This document shows positions 6,772 through 18,581 of a stretch of DNA of 64,000 bases, piece after piece (within the stretch, counting starts at the first letter, position 1; each line of letters starts with the position of its first letter). The notes beneath the pieces were generated by a model. The model was not told the origin of the DNA, ran no database searches, and saw nothing but the letters and a program-made list of their open reading frames with translations. The DNA comes from Patescibacteria group bacterium (GTDB taxonomy: Bacteria > Patescibacteriota > Patescibacteriia > SG8-24 > DYFX01): NCBI GenBank assembly GCA_030583805.1, contig CP129476.1, forward strand, positions 509,429 through 573,428. Direction: 5' to 3'. A program made the position numbers and the translations under genes.

Positions 6772-7890
6772 CTACCTCTTTTCCCCGTCGAGCGTCACGT
6801 CGACCGGCCGTTCGGCGCCGTCTTTCAGGACGTCGAAGCGGATTTTGGCTCCGGGCTCAAGCGTCGCGATCAGCTCGCTCAAATTGCGGCCATCGGTAAG
6901 ATCGGTGCCGTCGACCCGCAGAATGATATCCCCTTCCTGCAACCCGGCTTTGGCGGCGGATGATCCCGGACGCACGGCGGGCAGGCCCAGCGCGCGCGAA
7001 CCCGTGATGCGGGCGCCGTTCACGCCGCCGAATCCCCCGTCGGCGTAGGCCGTCACGTCGAGCGGCAACGTTTGGACGCCGAGCGTCGCCCGCACCGGAA
7101 CGTCGCCGCGGAAGATCTGCGTCAGCGCGGCGCTCACGAGATGCATCGGCACGAACGTGTCGGATCCGGCTTTCTCCGGAACGACGAAGCCTGCGAGATC
7201 GCCGTCGGCGGAAAGCACGGCGCTGCCGGCGGAGCGCGATCCCCAAGCGCCGTCCAGATGGAAGGCGCGCACGAAAAGGTCGGAGTTTTCCAAATGCAGC
7301 GCTTGCGACCGGCGGTTCACAGGCGTCGTCCCGGCAAACGCGGTCGCGACGAACATGCCGCCTTCGTCGAAGGCGTAGAGCGGCGTGCCCGGACGCAAGC
7401 CTTCCGTCTCCTCGAATCCACTGACCGGCAGCGCCGTTGCATCGACTTTCAAAAAGACGAGGCCGGTGCGCGGATCGGCAATGCGCGTTTTCGGTTCAAG
7501 CAACCGGCCGCCGACGGCAACGCTGACCTGTCCGGCGGCGACGGACGGAGCGGTCACGAGCCAGCCGTCCGACGTGAGCACCGTCGCGAATCCGACCGCC
7601 TCCGAAACGCCGCGGGCGCGCTGAGGCAATTCGGAACCTGCCGCGAGCCGCGGATAGACCGGCGCATTCAAGCGGTGAAGGCGTTCGGCGATTTCCGTCT
7701 GCGACAAGGCGCCGTTAACGGCGGTCGGCAGGCGGCCGATCTGCAGAGGCTCGACGGCGGTTGCCGAAAGGCCGGCGAAATACGATTCGACGATCAAGGC
7801 ACCAGCCAGGCCGGCAACGAGGCCGAGCAGGGCCGGAACGAACATCGAGCGCACAATTTCTCCCGTGGTGGTTTTTTTGGTGAAAAACAT
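6772..7890 (-). CDS. Membrane-anchored DegP/HtrA-like trypsin-fold protein with a C-terminal PDZ domain; the catalytic His/Ser motifs appear degenerate, so it may be a pseudoprotease
   Basis: N-terminal TM (FVPALLGLVAGLAGALIV), trypsin-like core, PDZ (GARITGSRALGLPAVRPGSSAAKAGLQEGDIILRVDGTDLTDGRNLSELIATLEPGAKIRF). There is no GNSGGP motif (GSRSAGSAV is found instead) and no TNxHV His motif. Confidence 0.55.
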   Translation of the reverse strand: MFFTKKTTTGEIVRSMFVPALLGLVAGLAGALIVESYFAGLSATAVEPLQIGRLPTAVNGALSQTEIAERLHRLNAPVYPRLAAGSELPQRARGVSEAVGFATVLTSDGWLVTAPSVAAGQVSVAVGGRLLEPKTRIADPRTGLVFLKVDATALPVSGFEETEGLRPGTPLYAFDEGGMFVATAFAGTTPVNRRSQALHLENSDLFVRAFHLDGAWGSRSAGSAVLSADGDLAGFVVPEKAGSDTFVPMHLVSAALTQIFRGDVPVRATLGVQTLPLDVTAYADGGFGGVNGARITGSRALGLPAVRPGSSAAKAGLQEGDIILRVDGTDLTDGRNLSELIATLEPGAKIRFDVLKDGAERPVDVTLDGEKR

Positions 7891-9780: not shown

Positions 9781-10233
9781 ATGAACGCCATTCTCGCCAC
9801 GAACGACAAAGCGCGGTACGACTACGAGTTCCTCGAGAAGATCGAGGCGGGCTTAGTGCTCTCCGGCCAGGAAGTGAAGTCCGCCAAGACCGGCCACCTC
9901 AAACTCAAGGGCGCGCACGTCACGTTCCATCGCGGCGAAGCGATGCTGACCGGCGCGCACATCGCCCGGTACCCGAAAGCCGGCCCCCTCCCCGACTACG
10001 ACCCCGAACGCTCGCGCAAGCTCTTGCTCCACAAGAAGGAAGTGAACCGTTTGCGCGGAAAACGCGAGGAAGACGGATTGACAATCGTGCCGATTCGTGC
10101 TTATATAAAGGGCGGCCGCATCAAAGTGGAGCTCGCCGTCGCGCGCGGCAAGAAGCAATTCGAAAAGCGCGAGGCGATCAAAAAGCGCGACCTCGAACGC
10201 GAGGCGCGAGGCCGGATGAAGATCCGGCGGTAA
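9781..10233 (+). CDS. smpB: SsrA-binding protein SmpB
   Basis: 150 aa: ...YDYEFLEKIEAGLVLSGQEVKS...GAHIARY...LLLHKKEVNRL...KGGRIKVELAVARGKKQFEKRE.... This is the canonical SmpB length and motifs, and it lies directly upstream of the tmRNA. Confidence 0.9.
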   Translation: MNAILATNDKARYDYEFLEKIEAGLVLSGQEVKSAKTGHLKLKGAHVTFHRGEAMLTGAHIARYPKAGPLPDYDPERSRKLLLHKKEVNRLRGKREEDGLTIVPIRAYIKGGRIKVELAVARGKKQFEKREAIKKRDLEREARGRMKIRR

Positions 10234-10268: not shown

Positions 10269-10671
10269 GGGGATGACTAGATTCGATGGAGTTCGTTCTC
10301 AATTCGCGCAGGTTGACGGAGCCTTCCCGTCATGAATAAAAAGGCAAACGACTACGTGCCAACGTTCTCGCAAAAGTGAAGACGGCGTTCGCTAACGCGT
10401 TCGCTCCGTCCTTCGCTCCGGTCCTCGCCTAAGCGCGACTGACCCATCGCCCGTCGACATCTTCTAGACGGATCACGGTGTTATAAGAAGGTCCGCCGCA
10501 TGTTCCGCCGAGAGGCATGCGATACGGTTGGATCCAGGCACGGACGCATACGACTCGTCGCCTCTATGTATGTGCTCCGGTCCCTCACGGGAAAACTCGA
10601 GACGACTACGCCTGTAGTGCGCATTGTCCTACTTCCTCCAGACCCGGGTGCGAATCCCGGCATCTCCACCA
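10269..10671 (+). ncRNA. ssrA: tmRNA (ssrA)
   Basis: The 5' end GGGGAUGACUAGAUUCGAUGG resembles the canonical GGGGCUGAUUCUGGAUUCGACGG. The 3' end has a tRNA-like T-arm GGUGCGAAUCCCGG, then CAUCUCC pairing with the 5' GGGGAUG acceptor stem, then ACCA. It lies immediately after smpB. The internal tag ORF is ambiguous (a GCA resume codon follows AAAAAG; candidate frames end ...APVLA-stop or ANDYVPTFSQK-stop). Confidence 0.8.
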
Positions 10672-10679
10672 AAGAAAAG
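10647..10679 (+). repeat. 33-bp direct repeat copy 1 (ggtgcgaatcccggcatctccaccaaagaaaag), the 3' end of ssrA; putative attL of the integrated island
   Basis: Exact 33-bp identity with 17000..17032, seen directly in the sequence. Confidence 0.85.
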
Positions 10680-10723
10680 TGTCTCTCTACGAGGGGTATT
10701 TTTCTTTTGAATTAACAGTGAAT

Positions 10724-10756
10724 AAAAACCATCCTGAGACTACCAGGATGGTTTTT
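10724..10756. terminator. Hairpin aaaaaccatcctg-agacta-ccaggatggttttt, a bidirectional terminator candidate between ssrA and the 3' end of the HTH-HNH gene
   Basis: Perfect 13-bp inverted repeat with flanking A/T runs, seen in the sequence. Confidence 0.5.
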
Positions 10757-11771
10757 GTCTCCTCCTTGCGCCCCCCATGCACTTATTGCAGTAGACGCCC
10801 AGGTTTTTAAGGGAGTGGTCCTTGGTACTCCTCAGGTGAATAACATTCAGATCCTTGCCGAACCGTTTCTTATGTTCAGTTCTTTTCAGACCACACTTTT
10901 CACACTTCTCCCCCGCCGCCATCATGGCTTTTTCCCTATTGCCACCAAAGTCACGGTAGTCGTAGAAGCATCGTAAACAATATCCATGTTGGAAGTGTTC
11001 ATCAGTGGTCGTCCCACATCCGCGGCATTTCTCGTATTTACGTGACCACCTATCCCCCAAGCTATTAGACTTGGACATGTTCCTTTTGAACATGCATGAA
11101 CTACAAAGCACGATAAGATTTTCGAGGTCGCTGCCATCTCCAACCTTTTTTACGACGTTGAGGTCGTTGCCCGATTTCTTGTTGTACTCGTCTCTTGAGA
11201 TTCCGCAGTCCTCACAACTCTGCCGAGCCCGCTCAAGCGCCTTTTCTCGATTACCTCCAAAAGCGATTGCATCGTACCAACAGTTCGTGCAATACCCCTC
11301 TCTGAGATGCTTATACTTTGTCTTTCCGCAAAGTCTGCAACGTAGGTAGTTTCTCGCCCATCGAGACTTCACCTCTCGCTTTAACTTTTGATACTTTTCA
11401 AATACCGCTGGTACATACTTCTCCAGCTCTTCTTCCGTAACGTCGTATTGAAGCAGGAACCGTCCGTGGTGCGTGAAGGAGTCGATTGCCCTGAACATCT
11501 CGTCTTCTTTTTCCAACAGACGCGCACCCTTCACACGAGTCCTTGCGTCTTCGTGCGTCTTTTTTTTCGCCTCCACGAATGCCTTGAGATCAATCGCGAA
11601 GCCCCTTTCAACCATCGCGTTCACCTCGTCGTGCCAAAGTCTGTTCAGCAGCTGTCGAATGCGCTCCCGAGAAAGCCCAAGCTTGTCCCCGATTTCCTGG
11701 AACGTGTGGCCTTGCGCATAGAGGACCCCGACTGTGGCGTCCCGCTGGCTGTCTTTCTCAGGGGGGTTCAC
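10740..11771 (-). CDS. Sigma-70 region-4-like HTH protein with two tandem HNH-like nuclease repeats (each CxxC ... NL..LC..C)
   Basis: N-terminal GHTFQEIGDKLGLSRERIRQLLNRL is a sigma r4/LuxR-like HTH. Repeat 1: CRLCGKT...CTNC...CEDCGISRDEYNKKSGNDLNVVKKVGDGSDLENLIVLCSSC. Repeat 2: CRGCGTT...CLRC...CEKCGLKRTEHKKRFGKDLNVIHLRSTKDHSLKNLGVYCNKC. Low-GC codon usage. Confidence 0.55.
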   Translation of the reverse strand: MNPPEKDSQRDATVGVLYAQGHTFQEIGDKLGLSRERIRQLLNRLWHDEVNAMVERGFAIDLKAFVEAKKKTHEDARTRVKGARLLEKEDEMFRAIDSFTHHGRFLLQYDVTEEELEKYVPAVFEKYQKLKREVKSRWARNYLRCRLCGKTKYKHLREGYCTNCWYDAIAFGGNREKALERARQSCEDCGISRDEYNKKSGNDLNVVKKVGDGSDLENLIVLCSSCMFKRNMSKSNSLGDRWSRKYEKCRGCGTTTDEHFQHGYCLRCFYDYRDFGGNREKAMMAAGEKCEKCGLKRTEHKKRFGKDLNVIHLRSTKDHSLKNLGVYCNKCMGGARRRQKPSW

Positions 11772-11780
11772 ACGGCGCGC

Positions 11781-13874
11781 TTAGCTCTCAAGACTGAAGG
11801 CGTCATCCGTCAGGAATGCCGACAAATCCTTCGACGCGGCCGAAAGGACACCGATCAGCATGTTGTTGACCGCTTCATCTACTCGAGCCGCGTTAAAGTT
11901 CTCCGGCTCCTTCCTCTCAAGCTCGAAGATGAGGTCCTTTTGGAAGATTTCCAAATACCGATTGAAGAGGAAGGTGCGGAACTGCAACGATTTCGCTCCG
12001 TATTTGTCGAGAATGTACCTCGCCATCGGATTTGCCGTGTTGATCCAGTAGATGCCGTGGGCAAGATCTTCCCTTCTTTGGAAGACGACCGTGTGACGCG
12101 GGGTAAGCTCCACTGGACCATTCACGATGCCAAGTGGATCCACATCATGATTCGAAAGAAGCACTTGTTGCGGCTTGGGGCCCTTGGACTTGCCCGAAGA
12201 ATCATCTTTCACCACGCGAACGACGATACGCGCCTCGTGTCCACCGACTTCCGCCGTGATTTCCGAAGTCGCATCCAGCTTCTCGCCAGTCACAAAAGCC
12301 TTCAGTACGCCGACTTGCGCACCGCTTGCTGCAATCTTCAGGTCGTCGCTCGAGACCACGATGGTGTCGGAGTCCATCGTGACATCAGCACCACTGCTCT
12401 TGAGGGCGATAACCGCACCGACAGGGATCTCCTCAGGACTACGAGTCTTCAAGATGAGCGGGTATTTAACCTTCAGCGGGATGTCGATTTCGGACACCAA
12501 GAACTCCAGTGCGCTTTCGGGCTCTTCGAGCGTTTTCTTTTTCGTGCCCTTGTTTCCTGATTTGTCGCCGCCCTCGGAACCCCCGATGGTCTCCTCAATC
12601 AGCTTCCTCATGACCTTGTCCTTCCAGTCGTTCAGGAACTTGTTGAACTCCGAAGAGATTTTGCGGTCGTTTTCCGCATTATCCTTTCTATCCTTCTCAG
12701 CGATTTCTTTCGCGAGTTTGTCTACCTCTTGGGCAATCCAGCTCAGGAGCGCCCTGGTACGTTCGTTGTTGACGAGTTCCACGCGATCGTTCTGCACGCT
12801 GTCGTGTTCCGCGCTCTCAAGAATCTCGCAGTTTTCAAGTTCACCCCAGATGTGGTTGGCTTGCGGGAAGTTCTTGATTTCAAGCCTGCCGAAGGGATAG
12901 GAGGCGATGCCGCCGACCTCACCAATGACGTCCAAACGATTCAGTTCGCCGTACTTGCTGCCGTCCAACGCGATCTCAGACGTGTGCAGCACGAGGCGCC
13001 CCGCGGAATACTTCGCAGACCCAATCACCACTTCGCCCTCCCCGTCCGTATTCGCCAACGGCAACTTATCAGGAACGGTGACGATTTTGGGTGTTTCGAA
13101 TCCTGAGTAGGGTTGCAGCTTCTCCGGAACGAGCTTTCCGTAAAGAGACTCACCGTTCTTGAATACAGATAATGTGATGCGGTTCAGCACCCGCATAAGC
13201 TGCGGGTGGTGCCTGAGTTTTTCGATAATCTGTTCGGGAGCCTGTGACTTCTTCCTTTTCGCAGAATCTTCACGCTTTGGGGAGTACCCCCAAACGATCG
13301 TAAAACCTGTCTTACCTTTCTCAAGGAGTTGCCTGGCAGTTTTGGGAATATTTTGCTTCTGGATGTTCCCAAGCTTCAAGGCCGCATCGAGTGAAAGCTT
13401 TCGGCCCTGATATCCTTCGTCGTATCCGTACCTTCGGTCTTCATTGAACCCGAATACACTGATTTTGCCGTCCTTATAGGTAACGAAATGCGCGTGCTCG
13501 AACATCTGCCTCATGTAGAACTTCCCCCCGTTTCCATGGCCACCAAAGGTTTTCACATCCTTGCCACGCGTTGCGGCAAGGGCGCTAAACCATTTCTTGA
13601 AAGCCGATTCGATGTCCGTATCATCCATGCCAACAAAATCGAGACAGCCCACGGCTTCTTCGCCATCCAAATCGTCCTCAAAGAGGAGGATTACCGAGGT
13701 GTCATCGTCAGAAAAATCCGAACGCTTATAAGCGTCGATGGAGTTCTTGATCCATTCGGCGATTCCTTTGGGGTGATTGAAGCTGAACGCCTGACCCATG
13801 AAATCGAGCGCGCGCTCTTCGTCCAGAATCGCTCTCTCTGCCTTGATGACAAAACCCTTTTTACTTTTCGGCAT
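11781..13874 (-). CDS. GHKL-superfamily (Bergerat-fold, HATPase_c_3/MORC-like) ATPase, 697 aa, with a long C-terminal extension of unknown function
   Basis: N-box EWIKNSIDAY (ExxxNSxDA). G1-like VGCLDFVGMDDTD. G2-like FGGHGNGGKFYMRQMF. The 4-nt spacing to the downstream HTH-HNH gene suggests an operon. No nuclease motif is recognisable in the remaining ~500 aa. Confidence 0.55.
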   Translation of the reverse strand: MPKSKKGFVIKAERAILDEERALDFMGQAFSFNHPKGIAEWIKNSIDAYKRSDFSDDDTSVILLFEDDLDGEEAVGCLDFVGMDDTDIESAFKKWFSALAATRGKDVKTFGGHGNGGKFYMRQMFEHAHFVTYKDGKISVFGFNEDRRYGYDEGYQGRKLSLDAALKLGNIQKQNIPKTARQLLEKGKTGFTIVWGYSPKREDSAKRKKSQAPEQIIEKLRHHPQLMRVLNRITLSVFKNGESLYGKLVPEKLQPYSGFETPKIVTVPDKLPLANTDGEGEVVIGSAKYSAGRLVLHTSEIALDGSKYGELNRLDVIGEVGGIASYPFGRLEIKNFPQANHIWGELENCEILESAEHDSVQNDRVELVNNERTRALLSWIAQEVDKLAKEIAEKDRKDNAENDRKISSEFNKFLNDWKDKVMRKLIEETIGGSEGGDKSGNKGTKKKTLEEPESALEFLVSEIDIPLKVKYPLILKTRSPEEIPVGAVIALKSSGADVTMDSDTIVVSSDDLKIAASGAQVGVLKAFVTGEKLDATSEITAEVGGHEARIVVRVVKDDSSGKSKGPKPQQVLLSNHDVDPLGIVNGPVELTPRHTVVFQRREDLAHGIYWINTANPMARYILDKYGAKSLQFRTFLFNRYLEIFQKDLIFELERKEPENFNAARVDEAVNNMLIGVLSAASKDLSAFLTDDAFSLES

Positions 13875-13882
13875 AACTTCAG

Positions 13883-14491
13883 CTATCTCACTACGTCAAA
13901 TACGGCCTTGCCGAGTTTTTTCTGCAAAAACCCGTAATACTCTGTGAGGCTTTTTACGAGCTTCGGCTCGAAACCACTCTTCCTGGCCTCATCGAGTGCT
14001 GTTCCTACCACGGCAATCCGTCCAGTCAGTTCCTCTGGTTTGGTTCTCACGCTTACTCCCAGGAACGAGTAGAGATCGGCCTCGATGATGTCGTCCGTCT
14101 TTCCGGTAAGATAGAGCGCAAATCCTTCAAGTCCTTTCATACGCAGAATCTCGGTCGCCGTAGAACGAGAAAGCCGGCTCGTGTCGTTTTTGACGGGCTT
14201 ACTCTTCCCGGAAAGCCTTCGCGCCTCGTCCAAGCCCCTAACAGTAAGGGAGAACATCTTGTTGGACGAACGGAGAAAGCCCGCCTTCTTGAGATTCGTA
14301 TAGAGCGGCTTGTGAACCAGGTCACCCGAATCGGGGTACTGCCGGTAGCCTTTCAGGTGGAAGTTGTCTGGGAAGAGCTCGTATACCTTGACTACTATGT
14401 CCTCATACCTGAGCGATTTGGTGCTGTCCTTGGACAACTCAAACATCGCCAGGAGGATTTTTTCCGATCTCGAGAGCGTGTCGTTGCTCAT
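13883..14491 (-). CDS. Hypothetical protein (202 aa) of the island
   Basis: Clean low-GC ORF MSNDTLSRSEKILLAMFELSKDSTKSLRYEDIVVKVYELFPDNFHLKGY.... The 8-nt gap to the GHKL gene suggests an operon. No recognisable motif. Confidence 0.4.
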   Translation of the reverse strand: MSNDTLSRSEKILLAMFELSKDSTKSLRYEDIVVKVYELFPDNFHLKGYRQYPDSGDLVHKPLYTNLKKAGFLRSSNKMFSLTVRGLDEARRLSGKSKPVKNDTSRLSRSTATEILRMKGLEGFALYLTGKTDDIIEADLYSFLGVSVRTKPEELTGRIAVVGTALDEARKSGFEPKLVKSLTEYYGFLQKKLGKAVFDVVR

Positions 14492-14492
14492 A

Positions 14493-14783
14493 TCACAGGC
14501 TGAAACCGTCGCCGTTTTTTGAACTCGTAAACCTGTCTTTTACCATTCGGAGCTCCCTATCTACTGCAGAAAACATCTTCCTGACTTCAGCCTCAGTATA
14601 GTCATACTGGCTCTTATTCGACAGATTACCGAGGCTTTTGATGCGCCTTAGGATGTTGTTTACCCGCAGGGTTGCGATACGCTTAAACTTGTCCGATTTT
14701 GTCTCTTTATTTTGCGACATATTTGGAGAATATTTGTCGAATATTGTTGCGCTATCTTTACCAAATATACACAAATCCGTCAA
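14493..14783 (-). CDS. Hypothetical small protein (up to 96 aa; an alternative start at MSQNKETK gives 75 aa)
   Basis: ORF sits between the dcm and the 202-aa gene with a 1-nt gap to the latter. Lys-rich. No motif. Confidence 0.3.
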   Translation of the reverse strand: MTDLCIFGKDSATIFDKYSPNMSQNKETKSDKFKRIATLRVNNILRRIKSLGNLSNKSQYDYTEAEVRKMFSAVDRELRMVKDRFTSSKNGDGFSL

Positions 14784-14799
14784 ATATGCCCGAGCCCCC

Positions 14800-15783
14800 T
14801 TAACGAGAGGCAGTGTCCATTGCCCTTTTCATCTCCTTCGCGATTTCCCTGATAACCGGAACGGCGACCGAGTTTCCAAGGAGCTTATATGCCTGCCTGA
14901 CCGTCACAGGCATCTTGAACCCCTTATTAAAACCTTGTAGCGCCTTGCATTCATTAACCGTTAGACGTCTGATGCCCAAGGTATTAATCGGGCTTTTCAA
15001 GTCCGCTCCTTCGCCGCCATCCGAAGGAAGAATGCGGTCTTTCACAAGGTTCCTTTCCCTACCCATATTGCCAGCCACGAACGTATTGGCGATACCTTCG
15101 GGATCCAACACGCAATATCCGAAGTTGCTACCCGCATCGGAGTGCCTCTGCTTGTGCTTAATCAAACCGTCCATGTACTGCTTACTCAAGTAGTGGGACG
15201 GATGTGCGCCTTTCTCCAAAATCTCCTTCAATGGTTTTGGTGCTTTTCTTTTAAGATTATTGAAGCTGAAGTCTATTTTTGGGTTTTTAAATCCAACAAT
15301 AAAAACTCTTTCACGTTTTTGTGGTACTCCGAAGTCCTTGGCATTAAGTACCGCGACGTGGACCTGGTAGCCCAACTTCACTCGTAGAGACCGGAGTATC
15401 GTTTTGAGTGTCTCTCCACCTTCGTGTGAGACCAAGGCTTTCACGTTTTCAAACATGAAGGCCTTCGGTCGAGTCCTGTCGATTAAGTGCTCTAACACGA
15501 AAAAGGCGTTCCCACGAACGTCTTCGAAACCATGTCCCTTTCCTGCCCTCGAGAAGGGCTGACATGGGAAGCCTCCGAGCAATACGTCGTATTTAGGAAT
15601 CTCGAGTAAGTCAACCTCTTCGAGCGGCTTACATACGATCGGACCGTGGTTTGCGGCATAGACAGTTGCAGCATGCGCATCCATGTCGTTGGCAAAGACC
15701 GTCTGGAAGCCAGCCTTCTCAAAACCTAAACGAATACCGCCGATTCCGGCGAATAGGTCGATGCATCTATAGGCCTTCTTCAT
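14800..15783 (-). CDS. dcm: DNA (cytosine-5)-methyltransferase (Dcm-type C5-MTase)
   Basis: Motif I CIDLFAGIGGIRLGF. Motif IV GGFPCQPFSRAG. Motif VI ENVKAL. Motif VIII QKRERVFIVGF. Motif X KLLGNSVAVPVIREI. 327 aa. Confidence 0.9.
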   Translation of the reverse strand: MKKAYRCIDLFAGIGGIRLGFEKAGFQTVFANDMDAHAATVYAANHGPIVCKPLEEVDLLEIPKYDVLLGGFPCQPFSRAGKGHGFEDVRGNAFFVLEHLIDRTRPKAFMFENVKALVSHEGGETLKTILRSLRVKLGYQVHVAVLNAKDFGVPQKRERVFIVGFKNPKIDFSFNNLKRKAPKPLKEILEKGAHPSHYLSKQYMDGLIKHKQRHSDAGSNFGYCVLDPEGIANTFVAGNMGRERNLVKDRILPSDGGEGADLKSPINTLGIRRLTVNECKALQGFNKGFKMPVTVRQAYKLLGNSVAVPVIREIAKEMKRAMDTASR

Positions 15784-15924
15784 ACCGCTACAGTATAGTT
15801 CGAGCTTGATTTAGTGTCACTTTTCGGCGTTCAGAGCCCGGGATTGTTGGGGCGATCATGACGGACGGGTCCAAAATCAAAGACAGGATCAGAGATGATC
15901 CTGTCCGATGACTTTTTGGTACGG

Positions 15925-16364
15925 TTAGAAGGCGAAGGAACCGCTCTTGGAGCTACAGACAACGATGGTCACCTCTTTAGCCAAGTCGTCGATGTAGTGC
16001 CCCACCTCGTCTTCTTTCTTGTTTCTAACCTTAAGGGCCACATGCCCATCTTTCTTTCTACTTGTAAGTAACTTTGTGAACTTCTTAAACTTTTTATTGT
16101 GCTCAACAAAGTTGTTTCGATAGTACTCAATAAAAACTCCCTTAACCAAACCTTTCGGCGTTAGATACAAGGAGATTTCTTTGTTGACGTTGTAGAGGCG
16201 TGCATTCCTCGGCATTTTTGGCAGACCCCACTCCAAAGAGTCCATTTCTGAGTCATACTCAAAAACCCAACCATCTTTTTTGGCCAGTGAATCGAGATGG
16301 AGAATCTCGCTTTTAACAGTTTTGGTTACGTCGTGGGTCATATGATTTGCGGCTATGGCCATTT
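15925..16364 (-). CDS. Hypothetical protein of the island (about 146 aa starting MAIAANHMTHDV); the track ORF extends further 5' into an implausible Arg-rich overlap
   Basis: The low-GC Lys-rich body (...WVFEYDSEMDSLEWGLPKMPRNARLYNVNKEISLYLTPKGLVKGVFIEYYRNNFVEHNKKFKKF...) only begins after about residue 70 of the track ORF. Confidence 0.35.
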
Positions 16365-16724
16365 CCCGTGTACGCACGTCGTCTGGCCGTGTTCCCTGGG
16401 CTCGATTGCGTCGTCGTAATAGGTAGTTCGAACTGCGGCGGGGCTCGCGCCACTGATCTGGACAACGACCTTCACGAAGTTGTGACGAACCTGCCCGGAA
16501 GGCGTTACTTTGGTGCCAAGGGACCGATAGTAGCAGAGGGCGCCGGCGACCGACAGACTTTCGTAAACCCACTGCGGTGATACCAAGACGAGCTTCACCT
16601 TCTTGAGGTAGCTCTTATGTGCGAGGTATGGGCGCTTTGCAAGGTGATTCACGCGATTCACCTCATGGAAAACGACCCGTCGCCCTGCATAATCAGTGCA
16701 GTCTAAGCAGTTGCTCGGGGGCAT
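16353..16724 (-). CDS. Hypothetical protein at the attR-proximal end of the island (123 aa, CxxC ... H-rich N-terminus); possible decayed nuclease or recombinase remnant
   Basis: MPPSNCLDCTDYAGRRVVFHEVNRVNHLAKRPYLAHKSYLKK.... It overlaps the upstream part of the 15925..16572 track ORF, so only one of the two frames is real there. No confident motif. Confidence 0.25.
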   Translation of the reverse strand: MPPSNCLDCTDYAGRRVVFHEVNRVNHLAKRPYLAHKSYLKKVKLVLVSPQWVYESLSVAGALCYYRSLGTKVTPSGQVRHNFVKVVVQISGASPAAVRTTYYDDAIEPREHGQTTCVHGKWP

Positions 16725-16999
16725 ACGGAGACGCTATGGGACCACGACCTCGGGCTGTTGTCAAATGGCTGTGGCGGACACTACTGCGCTCATAATAGCA
16801 TAATCGCAGACCAAAAGCAGGACCGTTCCCGATCCTGCTGTGGCCTGCTTGGTGCCCATCTGGTGCCCAAAATCCGTCGTTGGGTGGCGAACCCTGTCGA
16901 CATCTGGCGAAGGGTGAAACGGGTCATTTCCGCCAACCTTCGGTCAGAATCGGTAGTTATCGGCTAACCATAGGCCTTGTCAGGTTTAGGCGAAGGGCA

Positions 17000-17032
17000 G
17001 GTGCGAATCCCGGCATCTCCACCAAAGAAAAG
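17000..17032 (+). repeat. 33-bp direct repeat copy 2 (ggtgcgaatcccggcatctccaccaaagaaaag), a displaced copy of the ssrA 3' end; putative attR
   Basis: Exact identity with 10647..10679. It is followed by its own hairpin plus T-run (cctct-ccg-agagg cgtttttctttt). Confidence 0.85.
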
Positions 17033-17089
17033 CGCCCCTCTCCGAGAGGCGTTTTTCTTTTGTCATGCTACACTTACCCCAAGACACCT

Positions 17090-18161: not shown

Positions 18162-18236
18162 ACCGAGAACTCTCGGTCTTTTTCTTTTGAACGAAAAGAC
18201 CCGCCGTGAGGCGAGTCTCTTTCGGATCGGCGCGTC

Positions 18237-18446
18237 TTAGACGCGGCGGACACCGGCGGCGCGAGGGCCCTTTTCGGACGGCTCGACCTCGAAGGTGACC
18301 TTGTCGTCAACGCGGAGCTCGTCGAAGGTGACGTCGACGAGAGCTTCCGAGTGGAAGAAGACATCCTTGGAGTTGTCTTCCGGAGCGATGAAACCGAATC
18401 CCTTATCCGTAAGGCGCTTGATGATACCGTTCATGTGCGTGTACAA
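18237..18446 (-). CDS. Cold-shock protein (CspA family); the likely start is the internal MNGIIKRL (about 18434)
   Basis: ...KGFGFIAPEDNSKDVFFHSEALVDVTFDELRVDDKVTFEVEPSEKGPRAAGVRRV carries the cold-shock domain RNP1 motif GFGFI. Confidence 0.85.
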   Translation of the reverse strand: MYTHMNGIIKRLTDKGFGFIAPEDNSKDVFFHSEALVDVTFDELRVDDKVTFEVEPSEKGPRAAGVRRV

Positions 18447-18581
18447 ATGATTAAACGCAACGCCGCTTGGACGGAAATTGGCAACATTCCCGCGCAGAAG
18501 TCTTTGCTAAGCGAAATGATACCACAGTTCGCGGTTTTTTACAAGCCCCCGACCCCCGTCGGGTGCTACAATGGCTCCGCT

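What the first reader, a model, noticed from the sequence alone, without database searches (positions are those of the whole stretch)
10647..17032. Integrase-less 6.3-kb island in the tmRNA 3' end carrying a candidate restriction-modification-like defence module (Dcm MTase + GHKL/MORC-like ATPase + HTH-2xHNH nuclease-like protein)
Island signature:
- A perfect 33-bp direct repeat of the ssrA 3' terminus (ggtgcgaatcccggcatctccaccaaagaaaag) occurs at 10647-10679 and 17000-17032.
- The 6.3 kb between the copies is visibly AT-richer than the flanks.
- All seven ORFs are co-oriented on the minus strand. This is the classic signature of a tmRNA-targeting integrative element.

Cargo:
- A definite C5 cytosine methyltransferase (all motifs I, IV, VI, VIII, X present).
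- A 697-aa protein with clear Bergerat-fold (GHKL) N/G1/G2 boxes.
- A protein combining a sigma-r4-type HTH with two tandem HNH-like Cys/His modules.
- Four small proteins with no recognisable motifs.

No integrase/recombinase is recognisable, so the island looks immobilised.

MORC/MutL-type GHKL ATPases linked to methylases and nucleases have been proposed as R-M-like systems from comparative genomics. This exact combination (GHKL ATPase + dual-HNH HTH protein + Dcm) is not a textbook system and could be an undescribed defence module.
Basis: partly seen in the sequence, partly recalled or inferred. Interest (0 to 1): 0.85.

Follow-up and report, generated by a model that had tools for sequence, protein, structure and literature searches.

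The report
tmRNA island carrying MORC-like methylase module
A 6.3-kb piece of foreign DNA with no integrase sits in the tmRNA gene of a Patescibacteria genome and carries a five-gene operon (cytosine methylase, two small proteins, a MORC-like ATPase, a sigma-like DNA-binding protein) that recurs in many bacterial phyla, has no name, and has never been tested; it is probably a methylation-based anti-invader system.

Summary
The window contains:
- a perfect 33-bp repeat of the tmRNA 3' end
- an island at 50.6% GC against about 62% in the flanks
- seven co-oriented ORFs and no recombinase
A related genome (L089) has the same tmRNA and downstream genes without the island.

- **Confirmed:** Dcm is certain. 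The 697-aa protein is a GHKL+S5 ATPase whose model is closest to MORC3, SMCHD1 and MORC2. The 343-aa protein has a sigma-70 region-4 HTH and two zinc-ribbon/HNH-derived modules.
- **Corrected:**
  - The conserved core is not "GHKL + dual HNH + Dcm". It is a 202-aa winged-helix protein plus the GHKL ATPase.
  - That core is usually joined by a 75-aa helical protein, a C5 methylase (often with Vsr) and a variable sigma-r4 DNA-binding protein.
  - The HNH part is confined to some Patescibacteria and has mostly lost its catalytic residues.
  - The last two island ORFs are unrelated cargo.

The module occurs in at least 80 species-level genomes across about nine phyla. It often lies beside tRNA genes, serine recombinases and known defence genes. 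It matches no PADLOC, Pfam or NCBIfam model apart from the methylase.

It is best read as an untested variant of the MORC/paraMORC restriction-modification-like systems predicted in 2008. The effector step is unresolved.

The parts
10269..10671 (+). tmRNA (ssrA) gene, the integration target
   Evidence: Rfam RF00023, 76.2 bits, E 1e-28, full model 1-374. smpB lies upstream at 9781-10233.
10647..10679 (+). Left direct repeat (attL core), which completes the tmRNA 3' end
   Evidence: Perfect 33-mer; 2 copies in the window, 0 expected by chance.
10680..10710 (+). Imperfect extension of the repeat over a terminator-like hairpin supplied by the island
   Evidence: Alignment with 17033-17063 shows most positions identical and a shared TTTTTCTTTTG tail.
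10724..10756 (-). Hairpin plus T-run overlapping the stop codon of the last operon gene; likely operon terminator
   Evidence: Read directly from the sequence: CCATCCTG/CAGGATGG stem flanked by A and T runs.
10740..11771 (-). 343-aa sigma-r4 HTH protein with two [zinc ribbon + HNH-derived] modules; the variable DNA-binding fourth component of the module
   Evidence: - PF04545 E 7e-8 at aa 18-44.
- PHROG HNH families phrog_8446 E 1e-12, phrog_333 and phrog_16726.
- Invariant C145, C148, H155, C161, C164, C186, C189, C223, C226.
- Module 1 has K208-K209 in place of His. Module 2 has H312 and N323.
- NCBI calls it 'sigma factor-like helix-turn-helix DNA-binding protein'.
11781..13874 (-). 697-aa MORC-like GHKL+S5 ATPase, followed by a long helix (371-430), an Ig-like domain (452-555) and a conserved C-terminal domain (569-697)
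   Evidence: - AlphaFold pLDDT 82.
- Foldseek: MORC2 E 6e-9, plus MutL, TRAP1, Topo VI-B and GyrB.
- E40, N44, D47, D79, G82 and G111-K118 are at least 95% conserved in 75 sequences.
- Family size: more than 635 clusters at 90% identity and 536 clusters at 50% identity.
13883..14491 (-). 202-aa winged-helix plus helical-domain protein, the near-universal partner of the ATPase
   Evidence: - Found immediately upstream of the ATPase in 72 of 80 loci.
- AlphaFold pLDDT 90.
- No nuclease fold and no Pfam match.
14493..14720 (-). 75-aa helical protein (the longest ORF runs to 14783, 96 aa); a frequent fifth component
   Evidence: Present upstream of p202 in 44 of 80 loci. The alignment has a conserved RFKRLA...LGNCSN...Y.Y...KIF pattern, and homologues start near the window's Met22.
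14800..15783 (-). C5 cytosine DNA methyltransferase (Dcm)
   Evidence: PF00145 E 1e-86 over its full length. TIGR00675 E 1.5e-86. PADLOC MTase_II E 8e-99.
15792..15820 (-). Promoter-like site upstream of dcm (GTGACA-17-TATACT)
   Evidence: Consensus scan, 10 of 12 matches. This is a pattern match only.
15925..16724 (-). Two overlapping ORFs (123 aa at 16353-16724; 145 aa at 15925-16362) with their own terminator; island cargo unrelated to the module
   Evidence: No hit in Pfam, NCBIfam, PADLOC or PHROGs. Absent from all related loci. Terminator-like hairpin at 15881-15906.
17000..17063 (+). Right direct repeat (attR: displaced original tmRNA 3' end, 17000-17032) plus the original terminator hairpin (17033-17063)
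   Evidence: terminator-like site at 17037-17049 followed by a T-run.

Best explanation
A 6.35-kb integrative island inserted into the 3' end of ssrA, replacing it with its own copy. This left the 33-bp repeat. The island has since lost its recombinase, or never carried one.

Its main cargo is one operon: dcm, p75, p202, a MORC-like GHKL ATPase, and a sigma-r4/HNH-like protein. This operon belongs to a widespread, unnamed module. I read the module as a methylation-based self/non-self system, like a restriction-modification system.

**Proposed mechanism**
1. Dcm marks host DNA.
2. The sigma-r4 protein, and probably the winged-helix p202, read DNA.
3. The GHKL+S5 ATPase, with p202 and p75 as fixed partners, dimerises on ATP binding and clamps or loops DNA that lacks the mark.
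4. The invader is then nicked or cut by the HNH module where that module is intact. Alternatively the uncharacterised, highly conserved C-terminal domain of the ATPase or Vsr cuts it, or it is simply blocked.

**Shown:** the island anatomy; the folds; the intact ATP-binding motifs; the conserved gene linkage across phyla; the mobile and defence-island context.

**Inferred:** the defence role; the dependence on methylation; the clamp step; the identity of the effector.
For: **Island**
- establish the repeat, the tmRNA and the GC drop.
- L089 is an island-less relative.

**Single operon**
- Gaps between the five genes run from -1 to 16 nt.
- One promoter-like site lies upstream of dcm and one hairpin follows the last gene.

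**Conserved linkage**
- Among 80 species-level loci from Patescibacteria, Nitrospirota, Acidobacteriota, Verrucomicrobiota, Planctomycetota, Myxococcota, Actinomycetota, Elusimicrobiota and others: p202 is present in 72, p75 in 44, a C5 methylase in 56, Vsr in 39, and a sigma-r4 protein in 62.
- Among the 46 loci with enough flanking DNA: p202 40, sigma-r4 protein 35, methylase 35.
- The methylase keeps its linkage through at least four different gene orders and several methylase subfamilies. That is how a functional partner behaves.

**ATPase**
- The model is MORC-like and its catalytic motifs are invariant.

**Fourth component**
- It is always built on sigma-r4, with added RNA polymerase alpha-CTD, DnaA domain IV, HARE-HTH or HNH-derived modules.

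**Context**
- Large serine recombinases lie near the module in 16 loci, and tRNA genes abut it in many.
- Neighbours include Shedu, PDC-S41, QatA/PifA-like and mad8/HerA-like proteins.

**Precedent**
- GHKL-S5 ATPases linked to Dcm, Vsr and nucleases were predicted to act in restriction-modification systems (PMC2292703).
Against: - No experiment exists for any member.
- No nuclease is common to all loci:
  - p202 has no nuclease fold.
  - The HNH module is absent outside one Patescibacteria subset and lacks its catalytic His in most members.
  - The ATPase C-terminal domain matched nothing in the listed results.
- 11 of 46 well-flanked loci have no adjacent C5 methylase.
- The window operon lacks Vsr.
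- PADLOC gives no support beyond the methylase.
- Only 6 hits were found in 2.9 million viral contigs, so the module is not phage-borne. That says nothing for or against a defence role.
Confidence: 0.55

Rival explanations
1. **Nuclease-free silencing or exclusion.** The MORC-like ATPase, loaded by the sigma-r4/alpha-CTD-type reader and by p202, traps and compacts DNA that lacks the Dcm mark. This blocks its transcription or replication without cutting it. BREX is the analogy for defence without cleavage, and eukaryotic MORC and SMCHD1 are the analogy for the clamp.
For: - No universal nuclease exists.
- The closest structural matches are the chromatin-compacting ATPases MORC3, SMCHD1 and MORC2.
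- The p202 winged helix resembles kleisin winged helices: MukF, Scc1 and JetA.
- The fourth component is made of promoter- and origin-reading domains: sigma-r4, alpha-CTD and DnaA domain IV.
Against: - Some members keep a complete HNH motif (L014, L071).
- Vsr is frequent.
- The conserved C-terminal domain, with invariant D579, Q599, R600, D603 and N612, could be an unrecognised nuclease.
- The structural likeness to MORC covers only the ATPase module.
Confidence: 0.2
2. **Repair accessory, not defence.** The GHKL ATPase acts as a private MutL for very-short-patch repair. It would help Vsr fix the T:G mismatches produced by deamination of Dcm-made 5-methylcytosine, which would matter in hosts that lack MutS and MutL.
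For: - Vsr lies next to the methylase in 25 of 46 well-flanked loci and is sometimes fused to it.
- The minimal loci consist of p202, ATPase, Dcm and Vsr only (L063, L064, L076, L078).
- MutL N-terminal domains are strong structural matches.
- From established knowledge rather than any test here: E. coli MutL stimulates Vsr.
Against: - The window operon and many other loci have no Vsr.
- 11 of 46 loci have no adjacent methylase.
- The large sigma-r4/HARE-HTH/HNH proteins are unexplained by this reading.
- Vsr accompanies many ordinary Dcm-type restriction-modification systems, so its presence does not discriminate.
- The mobile and defence-island context fits a conflict system better.
Confidence: 0.12
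3. **Chance neighbours or an artefact.** This would be an ordinary orphan or type II methylase lying beside unrelated hypothetical genes, or the repeat would be an assembly error.
For: - The source is a metagenome-assembled genome.
- Five of the seven ORFs have no match above a curated threshold in Pfam, NCBIfam or PADLOC.
Against: - The same gene set recurs in 80 or more genomes of many phyla.
- The closest relatives L081 (85% identity) and L082 (51%) keep all five genes in the same order in different flanks.
- The two repeat copies are followed by different though related terminator sequences.
- The GC drop coincides exactly with the repeat boundaries.
- The contig is 1.17 Mb.
Confidence: 0.03

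Closest known systems
MORC / paraMORC GHKL-S5 ATPases of predicted restriction-modification systems (Iyer, Abhiman and Aravind 2008, PMC2292703)
   Same: - GHKL plus S5 ATPase module with intact ATP-binding motifs.
- Operon linkage to Dcm and Vsr.
- Patchy, laterally mobile distribution.
- Proposed role in looping or clamping DNA between a recognition site and an effector.
   Different: - No superfamily II helicase and no RE-fold nuclease appear in the neighbourhoods. The paper names these as the recurrent partners.
- None of the family-specific marks it describes is present: no ExxxH in S5, no C-terminal RE-fold domain, no TIR, no HxH.
- The fixed partners here are a 202-aa winged-helix protein, a 75-aa helical protein and a sigma-r4 protein. 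The held text of that paper mentions none of them.
- The sequence falls below the Pfam HATPase_c_3 threshold.
Bacterial proteins combining RNA polymerase alpha-CTD, sigma region 4 and HARE-HTH (Aravind and Iyer 2012, Cell Cycle 11:119). The paper is not held in the library, so this rests on memory of its abstract.
   Same: The fourth component in 27 loci has exactly this build: PF03118 + PF04545 + PF05066. The window's 343-aa protein is the Patescibacteria counterpart and shares the sigma-r4 core.
   Different: - The window protein has no alpha-CTD and no HARE-HTH. It carries two zinc-ribbon/HNH-derived modules instead.
- I could not check whether that paper describes the linkage to this ATPase.
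HEF_HK / Response_reg_2 modules next to C5 methylases (Bellieny-Rabelo et al. 2021, PMC8011034)
   Same: A GHKL protein related to paraMORCs, a small fixed partner and an upstream C5 methylase form a recurrent unit of unknown function.
   Different: - That family has a HATPase_c_3 + HEF_HK + HATPase_c architecture and a receiver-like partner, and is found mainly in Proteobacteria.
- None of those Pfam families matches the window proteins.
BREX (mechanistic analogy only)
   Same: Methylation marks self. The system has several ATPase and DNA-binding components and no dedicated nuclease in the core. BrxL carries a sigma-like HTH (PMC12839542).
   Different: No homologous component is shared apart from the presence of a methylase. 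BREX uses an N6-adenine methylase, PglZ, BrxC and BrxL. PADLOC BREX models do not match.
Eukaryotic MORC2, MORC3 and SMCHD1
   Different: - Sequence identity is only 13-15%.
- The window protein has no CW, chromo-like or hinge domains.
- The C-terminal half differs.
- In eukaryotes MORCs act on methylated, silenced DNA. Here the expected target is DNA that lacks the mark.

Membership tests
tRNA/tmRNA-targeting integrative genomic island | Insertion in the 3' end of the RNA gene, with a direct repeat of that end at the far boundary | tested here: met
   A perfect 33-bp repeat covers the last 25 nt of the tmRNA plus 8 nt downstream.
tRNA/tmRNA-targeting integrative genomic island | Site-specific recombinase encoded at one end of the island | tested here: not met
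   No recombinase domain in any island ORF. tblastn with serine recombinases from related loci finds nothing.
tRNA/tmRNA-targeting integrative genomic island | Atypical composition, and absence from a related genome | tested here: met
   GC is 0.506 against 0.62-0.63 in the flanks. L089 has the tmRNA and the downstream genes without the island, but it is a related species (75-89% nucleotide identity), not the same strain.
Type II restriction-modification system | DNA methyltransferase | tested here: met
   PF00145 E 1e-86 and PADLOC MTase_II E 8e-99.
Type II restriction-modification system | Cognate restriction endonuclease with an intact catalytic site | tested here: inconclusive
   The only nuclease-like element is the HNH-derived pair in the 343-aa protein. 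Module 1 lacks the His. Module 2 has H312 and N323 but no terminal metal ligand. Most homologues lack the His altogether.
GHKL (Bergerat-fold) ATPase with S5 transducer, MORC/paraMORC type | Bergerat fold with N, G1 and G2 boxes | tested here: met
   E40xxxN44xxD47, D79xxG82 and G111-K118 are at least 95% conserved. Fold matches to MORC, MutL, Hsp90, Topo VI-B and GyrB.
GHKL (Bergerat-fold) ATPase with S5 transducer, MORC/paraMORC type | S5-fold domain directly after the GHKL domain | tested here: met
GHKL (Bergerat-fold) ATPase with S5 transducer, MORC/paraMORC type | Sequence membership in Pfam HATPase_c_3, or in one of the described paraMORC1-5 families | tested here: not met
   HATPase_c_3 scores E 0.0058 and 17 bits against a cut-off of 25. 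The homologues have no precomputed Pfam domain. The family marks given in PMC2292703 (ExxxH, RE-fold or TIR C-terminus, HxH) are absent from the conserved positions.
GHKL (Bergerat-fold) ATPase with S5 transducer, MORC/paraMORC type | Neighbourhood with a superfamily II helicase and/or an RE-fold nuclease | tested here: not met
   No such family appears among the recurrent neighbour clusters of 80 loci.
HNH endonuclease | Homology to HNH families | tested here: met
   phrog_8446 E 1e-12, phrog_333 and phrog_16726 match the window protein. PF01844 or PF13392 match some homologues. The window protein itself has no Pfam HNH hit.
HNH endonuclease | Complete catalytic His...Asn...His/Asn set | tested here: not met
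   Module 1 has K208-K209 in place of the His. Module 2 has H312 and N323, then CNKCM with no His or Asn. Only 2 of 35 homologues (L014, L071) show the full motif.
Named defence systems in PADLOC 2.0 (including Mza, MADS, DISARM, Druantia, BREX) | Profile matches to the non-methylase components | tested here: not met
   No hit at E up to 0.1 for six of the seven island proteins. Only generic C5-methylase models match. The library does hold MADS models: mad8 matched a neighbour gene in L012.

The most novel reading that the evidence does not exclude
The module is a prokaryotic epigenetic silencing machine that uses no nuclease.

- A reader built from promoter- and origin-recognition domains (sigma region 4, alpha-CTD, DnaA domain IV, HARE-HTH) finds DNA that lacks the Dcm mark.
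- It loads a MORC-like ATPase clamp, with the winged-helix p202 acting like a kleisin-type bridge.
- The clamp compacts or transcriptionally shuts down invading DNA.

This would be a bacterial counterpart, and possibly a forerunner, of MORC/SMCHD1 silencing.
Probability: 0.15. Interest if true: 0.9.

Novelty: new variant of a known kind. Interest (0 to 1): 0.62.

Why it matters
**A large untested family.** The module has 536 clusters at 50% identity and spans about nine phyla. It has no profile in Pfam, NCBIfam or PADLOC apart from the methylase.

**Few known defences in Patescibacteria.** It is especially common in Patescibacteria, where few defence systems are known.

**An accessible model for MORC ATPases.** If it defends, it adds a methylation-linked system whose motor is a MORC-like ATPase rather than a helicase or an SMC protein. 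That would give an easy bacterial model for how MORC-type ATPases act on DNA in relation to cytosine methylation.

**An unusual reader protein.** Its DNA-binding component is assembled from domains that normally belong to RNA polymerase and DnaA. That suggests either recognition of promoter- or origin-like DNA, or decoys for phage proteins that attack the transcription machinery.

**A question about cleavage.** The lack of a shared nuclease raises whether defence here needs DNA cleavage at all.

Tried and rejected
- **ARAGORN** did not find the tmRNA. Rfam did.
- **Profile libraries:** Pfam, NCBIfam, PADLOC and PHROGs gave nothing for p202, p75, p145 or p123. For the ATPase they gave only a sub-threshold hit.
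- **Sequence profiles against PDB chains:** profiles of the ATPase, p202 and p75 families returned only chance-level hits.
- **p75 versus p202:** profile-profile comparison showed no relation.
- **p123 versus p145:** no similarity to each other.
- **p202 as the nuclease:** rejected. The confident model shows a winged helix plus a helical domain.
- **Dual HNH as the conserved effector:** rejected on the alignment and the His/Asn tally. Retention of the His/Asn motif also does not track presence of a methylase.
- **afdb50 fold library:** not available.
- **Exact empty-site junction:** absent from JGI metagenomes. The shorter 33-mer then found L089.
- **Attachment site in L081:** the closest relative does not carry this tmRNA attachment sequence. 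Its module lies beside a tRNA gene instead.
- **'Dallas' system:** this Patescibacteria-restricted defence (PMC12366544) was considered as a possible match. Its proteins are reported as confined to that phylum and without known folds, which does not fit.
- **HARE-HTH paper of 2012:** could not be read.

Full report
**1. The observation**

The 33-mer GGTGCGAATCCCGGCATCTCCACCAAAGAAAAG occurs exactly twice, at 10647-10679 and 17000-17032, with none expected by chance.
- Rfam places a full-length tmRNA at 10269-10671 on the plus strand (76 bits, E 1e-28), directly after smpB (9781-10233). ARAGORN missed it.
- The first repeat copy is therefore the last 25 nt of ssrA plus 8 nt.
- Aligning the two sites shows that similarity continues imperfectly for about 30 nt over a terminator hairpin, ending in the same TTTTTCTTTTG. 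The island thus brought its own copy of the tmRNA end and terminator, and the original end was displaced to 17000-17063.
- GC is 0.506 inside against 0.629 and 0.620 outside. No equal-sized window elsewhere in the 64 kb falls below 0.595.
- All ORFs of the island are on the minus strand.
- No recombinase is detectable by profile search or by tblastn with recombinases from related loci.

A 3-kb metagenome contig from a related organism (L089) provides an island-less comparator.
- Its tmRNA is 89% identical to the window's and has a single 3' end.
- After an unrelated radical-SAM-like gene, it carries homologues of the genes that lie to the right of the island in the window.

**2. The genes**

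The window comes from a Patescibacteria MAG; NCBI locus tags are QY323_02725 and QY323_02730, on a 1.17-Mb contig. In the direction of transcription:
- **dcm (15783-14800):** PF00145 E 1e-86, with motifs I, IV, VI, VIII and X readable in the sequence.
- **A 75-aa helical protein (14720-14493):** the longest possible ORF is 96 aa, but homologues start at the window's Met22.
- **A 202-aa protein (14491-13883).**
- **A 697-aa protein (13874-11781).**
- **A 343-aa protein (11771-10740).**

Gaps between these five genes run from -1 to 16 nt. A promoter-like site lies just upstream of dcm, and a hairpin with a T-run overlaps the last stop codon. They form one operon.

Two further overlapping ORFs (123 aa and 145 aa, 16724-15925) have their own terminator and no match in any library.

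**3. The 697-aa protein**

By sequence it barely touches HATPase_c_3 (E 0.006, below threshold), and a family profile finds nothing among PDB sequences. The fold evidence is much stronger.
- An AlphaFold model built on 32 homologues has pLDDT 82.
- Foldseek ranks MORC2, MutL, TRAP1/Hsp90, Topo VI-B and GyrB ATPase modules first, down to E 6e-9.
- In 75 family members the ATP-site residues are at least 95% conserved: E40, N44 and D47 (N box), D79 and G82 (G1), and G111-K118 (lid). The ATPase is probably active.

After the ATPase module come three further parts:
- A 60-residue helix (371-430).
- An Ig-like domain (452-555), which is absent in the roughly 600-aa forms and is Big_2-like in relatives.
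- A C-terminal domain (569-697) with invariant polar residues S574, D579, Q599, R600, D603, N612, R633 and R639. No listed search result says anything about it.

**4. The partners**

*p202.* Its model is confident (pLDDT 90). It consists of an N-terminal winged helix and a helical C-terminal domain.
- MukF, Scc1 and JetA also appear, with longer aligned stretches.
- It shows no nuclease fold.

*The 343-aa protein.* It starts with a sigma-70 region-4 HTH (PF04545 E 7e-8). It then has two copies of a module made of a four-Cys zinc ribbon and a second four-Cys unit.
- PHROGs classes that second unit with HNH endonucleases (phrog_8446 E 1e-12).
- The alignment of 32 homologues shows the cysteines invariant, but most members lack the HNH His. 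Only L014 and L071 have a full H...N...H motif.
- Pfam HNH or HNH_3 matches a handful of homologues.
- In the window protein, module 1 has K208-K209 where the His should be. Module 2 keeps H312 and N323 but ends in CNKCM without a metal ligand.

**5. Conservation**

A pattern scan of one genome per species returned 80 loci. They come from Patescibacteria and from Nitrospirota, Acidobacteriota, Verrucomicrobiota, Planctomycetota, Myxococcota, Solirubrobacterales, Elusimicrobiota and others.

| Component next to the ATPase gene | All 80 loci | 46 loci with enough flank |
|---|---|---|
| p202 | 72 | 40 |
| p75 | 44 | 27 |
| C5 methylase | 56 | 35 |
| Vsr (sometimes fused to the methylase) | 39 | 25 |
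| 343-aa family | 35 | 18 |
| Second family, 480-1020 aa | 27 | 17 |
| Either sigma-r4 protein | 62 | 35 |

These counts come from tblastn and clustering of neighbouring ORFs.
- The second family consists of one or two RNA-polymerase alpha-CTD domains, sigma region 4 and HARE-HTH repeats.
- Longer members of the 343-aa family also carry alpha-CTD domains, and 22 of 32 carry DnaA domain IV.
- The fourth component is thus one functional slot: a sigma-r4 core with changeable DNA-binding heads.
- The methylase stays linked through at least four gene orders and several subfamilies.
- The two closest relatives keep the window's five genes in the same order but in different flanks, each beside a tRNA gene: L081 (85% identity) and L082 (51%, with Vsr).
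- The last two island ORFs occur in no related locus.
- The family comprises more than 635 clusters at 90% identity and 536 at 50% identity, 137 of them at E up to 1e-30.

**6. Context**

- Large serine recombinases lie close to the module in 16 loci, and tRNA genes abut it in many Patescibacteria loci.
- Neighbours include Shedu (SduA_C), PDC-S41 (E 1e-166), QatA/PifA-like and mad8/HerA-like proteins, Fic, and ParB-fused N6/N4 methylases.
- Only six relatives were found in 2.9 million viral contigs, several of them distant forms with other gene orders.

The module is cargo of integrative islands and sits among defence genes.

**7. Mechanism**

*Shown:* an intact MORC-like ATPase; two fixed small partners, one of them a winged helix; a strongly linked C5 methylase; and a multi-headed DNA-binding protein.

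*Inferred:* Dcm marks self DNA, the readers find unmarked DNA, and the ATPase dimer closes on it. The invader is then cut or blocked. I put 0.55 on a methylation-based defence role.

The effector is open. Candidates are:
- the HNH module, where it is intact
- the conserved C-terminal domain of the ATPase
- Vsr
- no cleavage at all

Three rivals remain:
- **Silencing without a nuclease (0.2).** This fits the lack of a shared nuclease and the MORC, SMCHD1 and kleisin-like resemblances.
- **A private MutL for Vsr repair (0.12).** This fits the minimal p202-ATPase-Dcm-Vsr loci, but not the window, which lacks Vsr, and not the sigma-r4 proteins.
- **Chance adjacency or assembly error (0.03).** The conservation data contradict it.

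**8. Comparison with what is known**

- Iyer, Abhiman and Aravind (PMC2292703) described MORC and paraMORC1-5 ATPases in operons with Dcm, Vsr, superfamily II helicases and RE-fold nucleases. They proposed DNA looping in restriction-modification systems. The present family shares the ATPase build and the Dcm/Vsr link. It lacks the helicase and the RE-fold nuclease, lacks the described family marks, and has different fixed partners.
- From memory, the abstract of Aravind and Iyer 2012 mentions bacterial proteins that combine alpha-subunit and sigma features with HARE-HTH. That is the fourth component seen here. The paper is not held, so I could not check whether it reports the link to this ATPase.
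- The HEF_HK/Response_reg_2 modules next to C5 methylases (PMC8011034) are a parallel case with a different architecture.
- PADLOC 2.0, which contains Mza, MADS, DISARM, Druantia and BREX models, matches only the methylase.

I therefore rate this as a new variant of a known kind, with no experimental work in the literature searched.

**9. Verdict**

- The island is an integrase-less insertion in ssrA.
- Its main cargo is a five-gene member of a broad, unnamed module built around a MORC-like ATPase and linked to Dcm.

Interest is moderate to high. The general idea is 18 years old, but this specific family is large, unannotated, common in Patescibacteria and untested. It also raises the question of whether a methylation-linked system can work without a nuclease.

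Noticed in passing
window 10269-10671 (tag reading frame from 10358): ARAGORN does not call this tmRNA, but Rfam does. The frame starting at GCC (10358) encodes an unusually long 24-residue tag, ANVLAKVKTAFANAFAPSFAPVLA, which matches the large insertion seen in the Rfam alignment.
   Followed up: partly
window 15925-16724 (-): Two ORFs (123 aa and 145 aa) overlap by 10 nt and have their own terminator (15881-15906). They match nothing in Pfam, NCBIfam, PADLOC or PHROGs and are absent from every related locus. The layout resembles a toxin-antitoxin pair, but nothing supports that yet.
   Followed up: partly
L003 6760-8427 (-) and tRNA-Ser 6790-6877 (+); also L001, L008, L015, L031, L038: Large serine recombinase genes (Resolvase + Recombinase + Zn_ribbon_recom) lie beside the module. 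In L003 the reading frame runs across a tRNA gene on the other strand, which suggests islands that integrate into tRNA genes in Patescibacteria.
   Followed up: partly
L047 4458-5213 and L054 13875-14630: In two Nitrospirota-type loci a Fic/DOC protein (E 1e-21) is encoded directly after the alpha-CTD/sigma-r4/HARE-HTH protein, in the place where other loci have the methylase.
   Followed up: no
L084 and L085 (ATPase, then p202 downstream); L086-L088 (p75-like, then a distant ATPase): Distant relatives of the ATPase (25-33% identity) on IMG/VR contigs keep one or the other small partner, but in different gene orders. This points to a wider superfamily of such ATPase-partner pairs.
   Followed up: no
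L006, L013, L016, L032 (cluster 7); L052 12940-15021; L002 14674-17577; L012 17718-20093: Known or candidate defence genes sit next to the module in other genomes: Shedu SduA_C, PDC-S41 (E 1e-166), a QatA/PifA-like NTPase, and a mad8/HerA-like protein.
   Followed up: partly
window 18191-18500 (-): A weak match to the cspA thermoregulator model (24 bits, well below the gathering score of 78) overlaps a cold-shock protein gene at 18237-18446. It is probably driven by the coding sequence.
   Followed up: no
L002 391-606 (-) and 4586-4708 (+): A group I intron and a LOOT RNA score above their Rfam gathering thresholds, a few kb from the module in a Yanofskybacteria contig.
   Followed up: no
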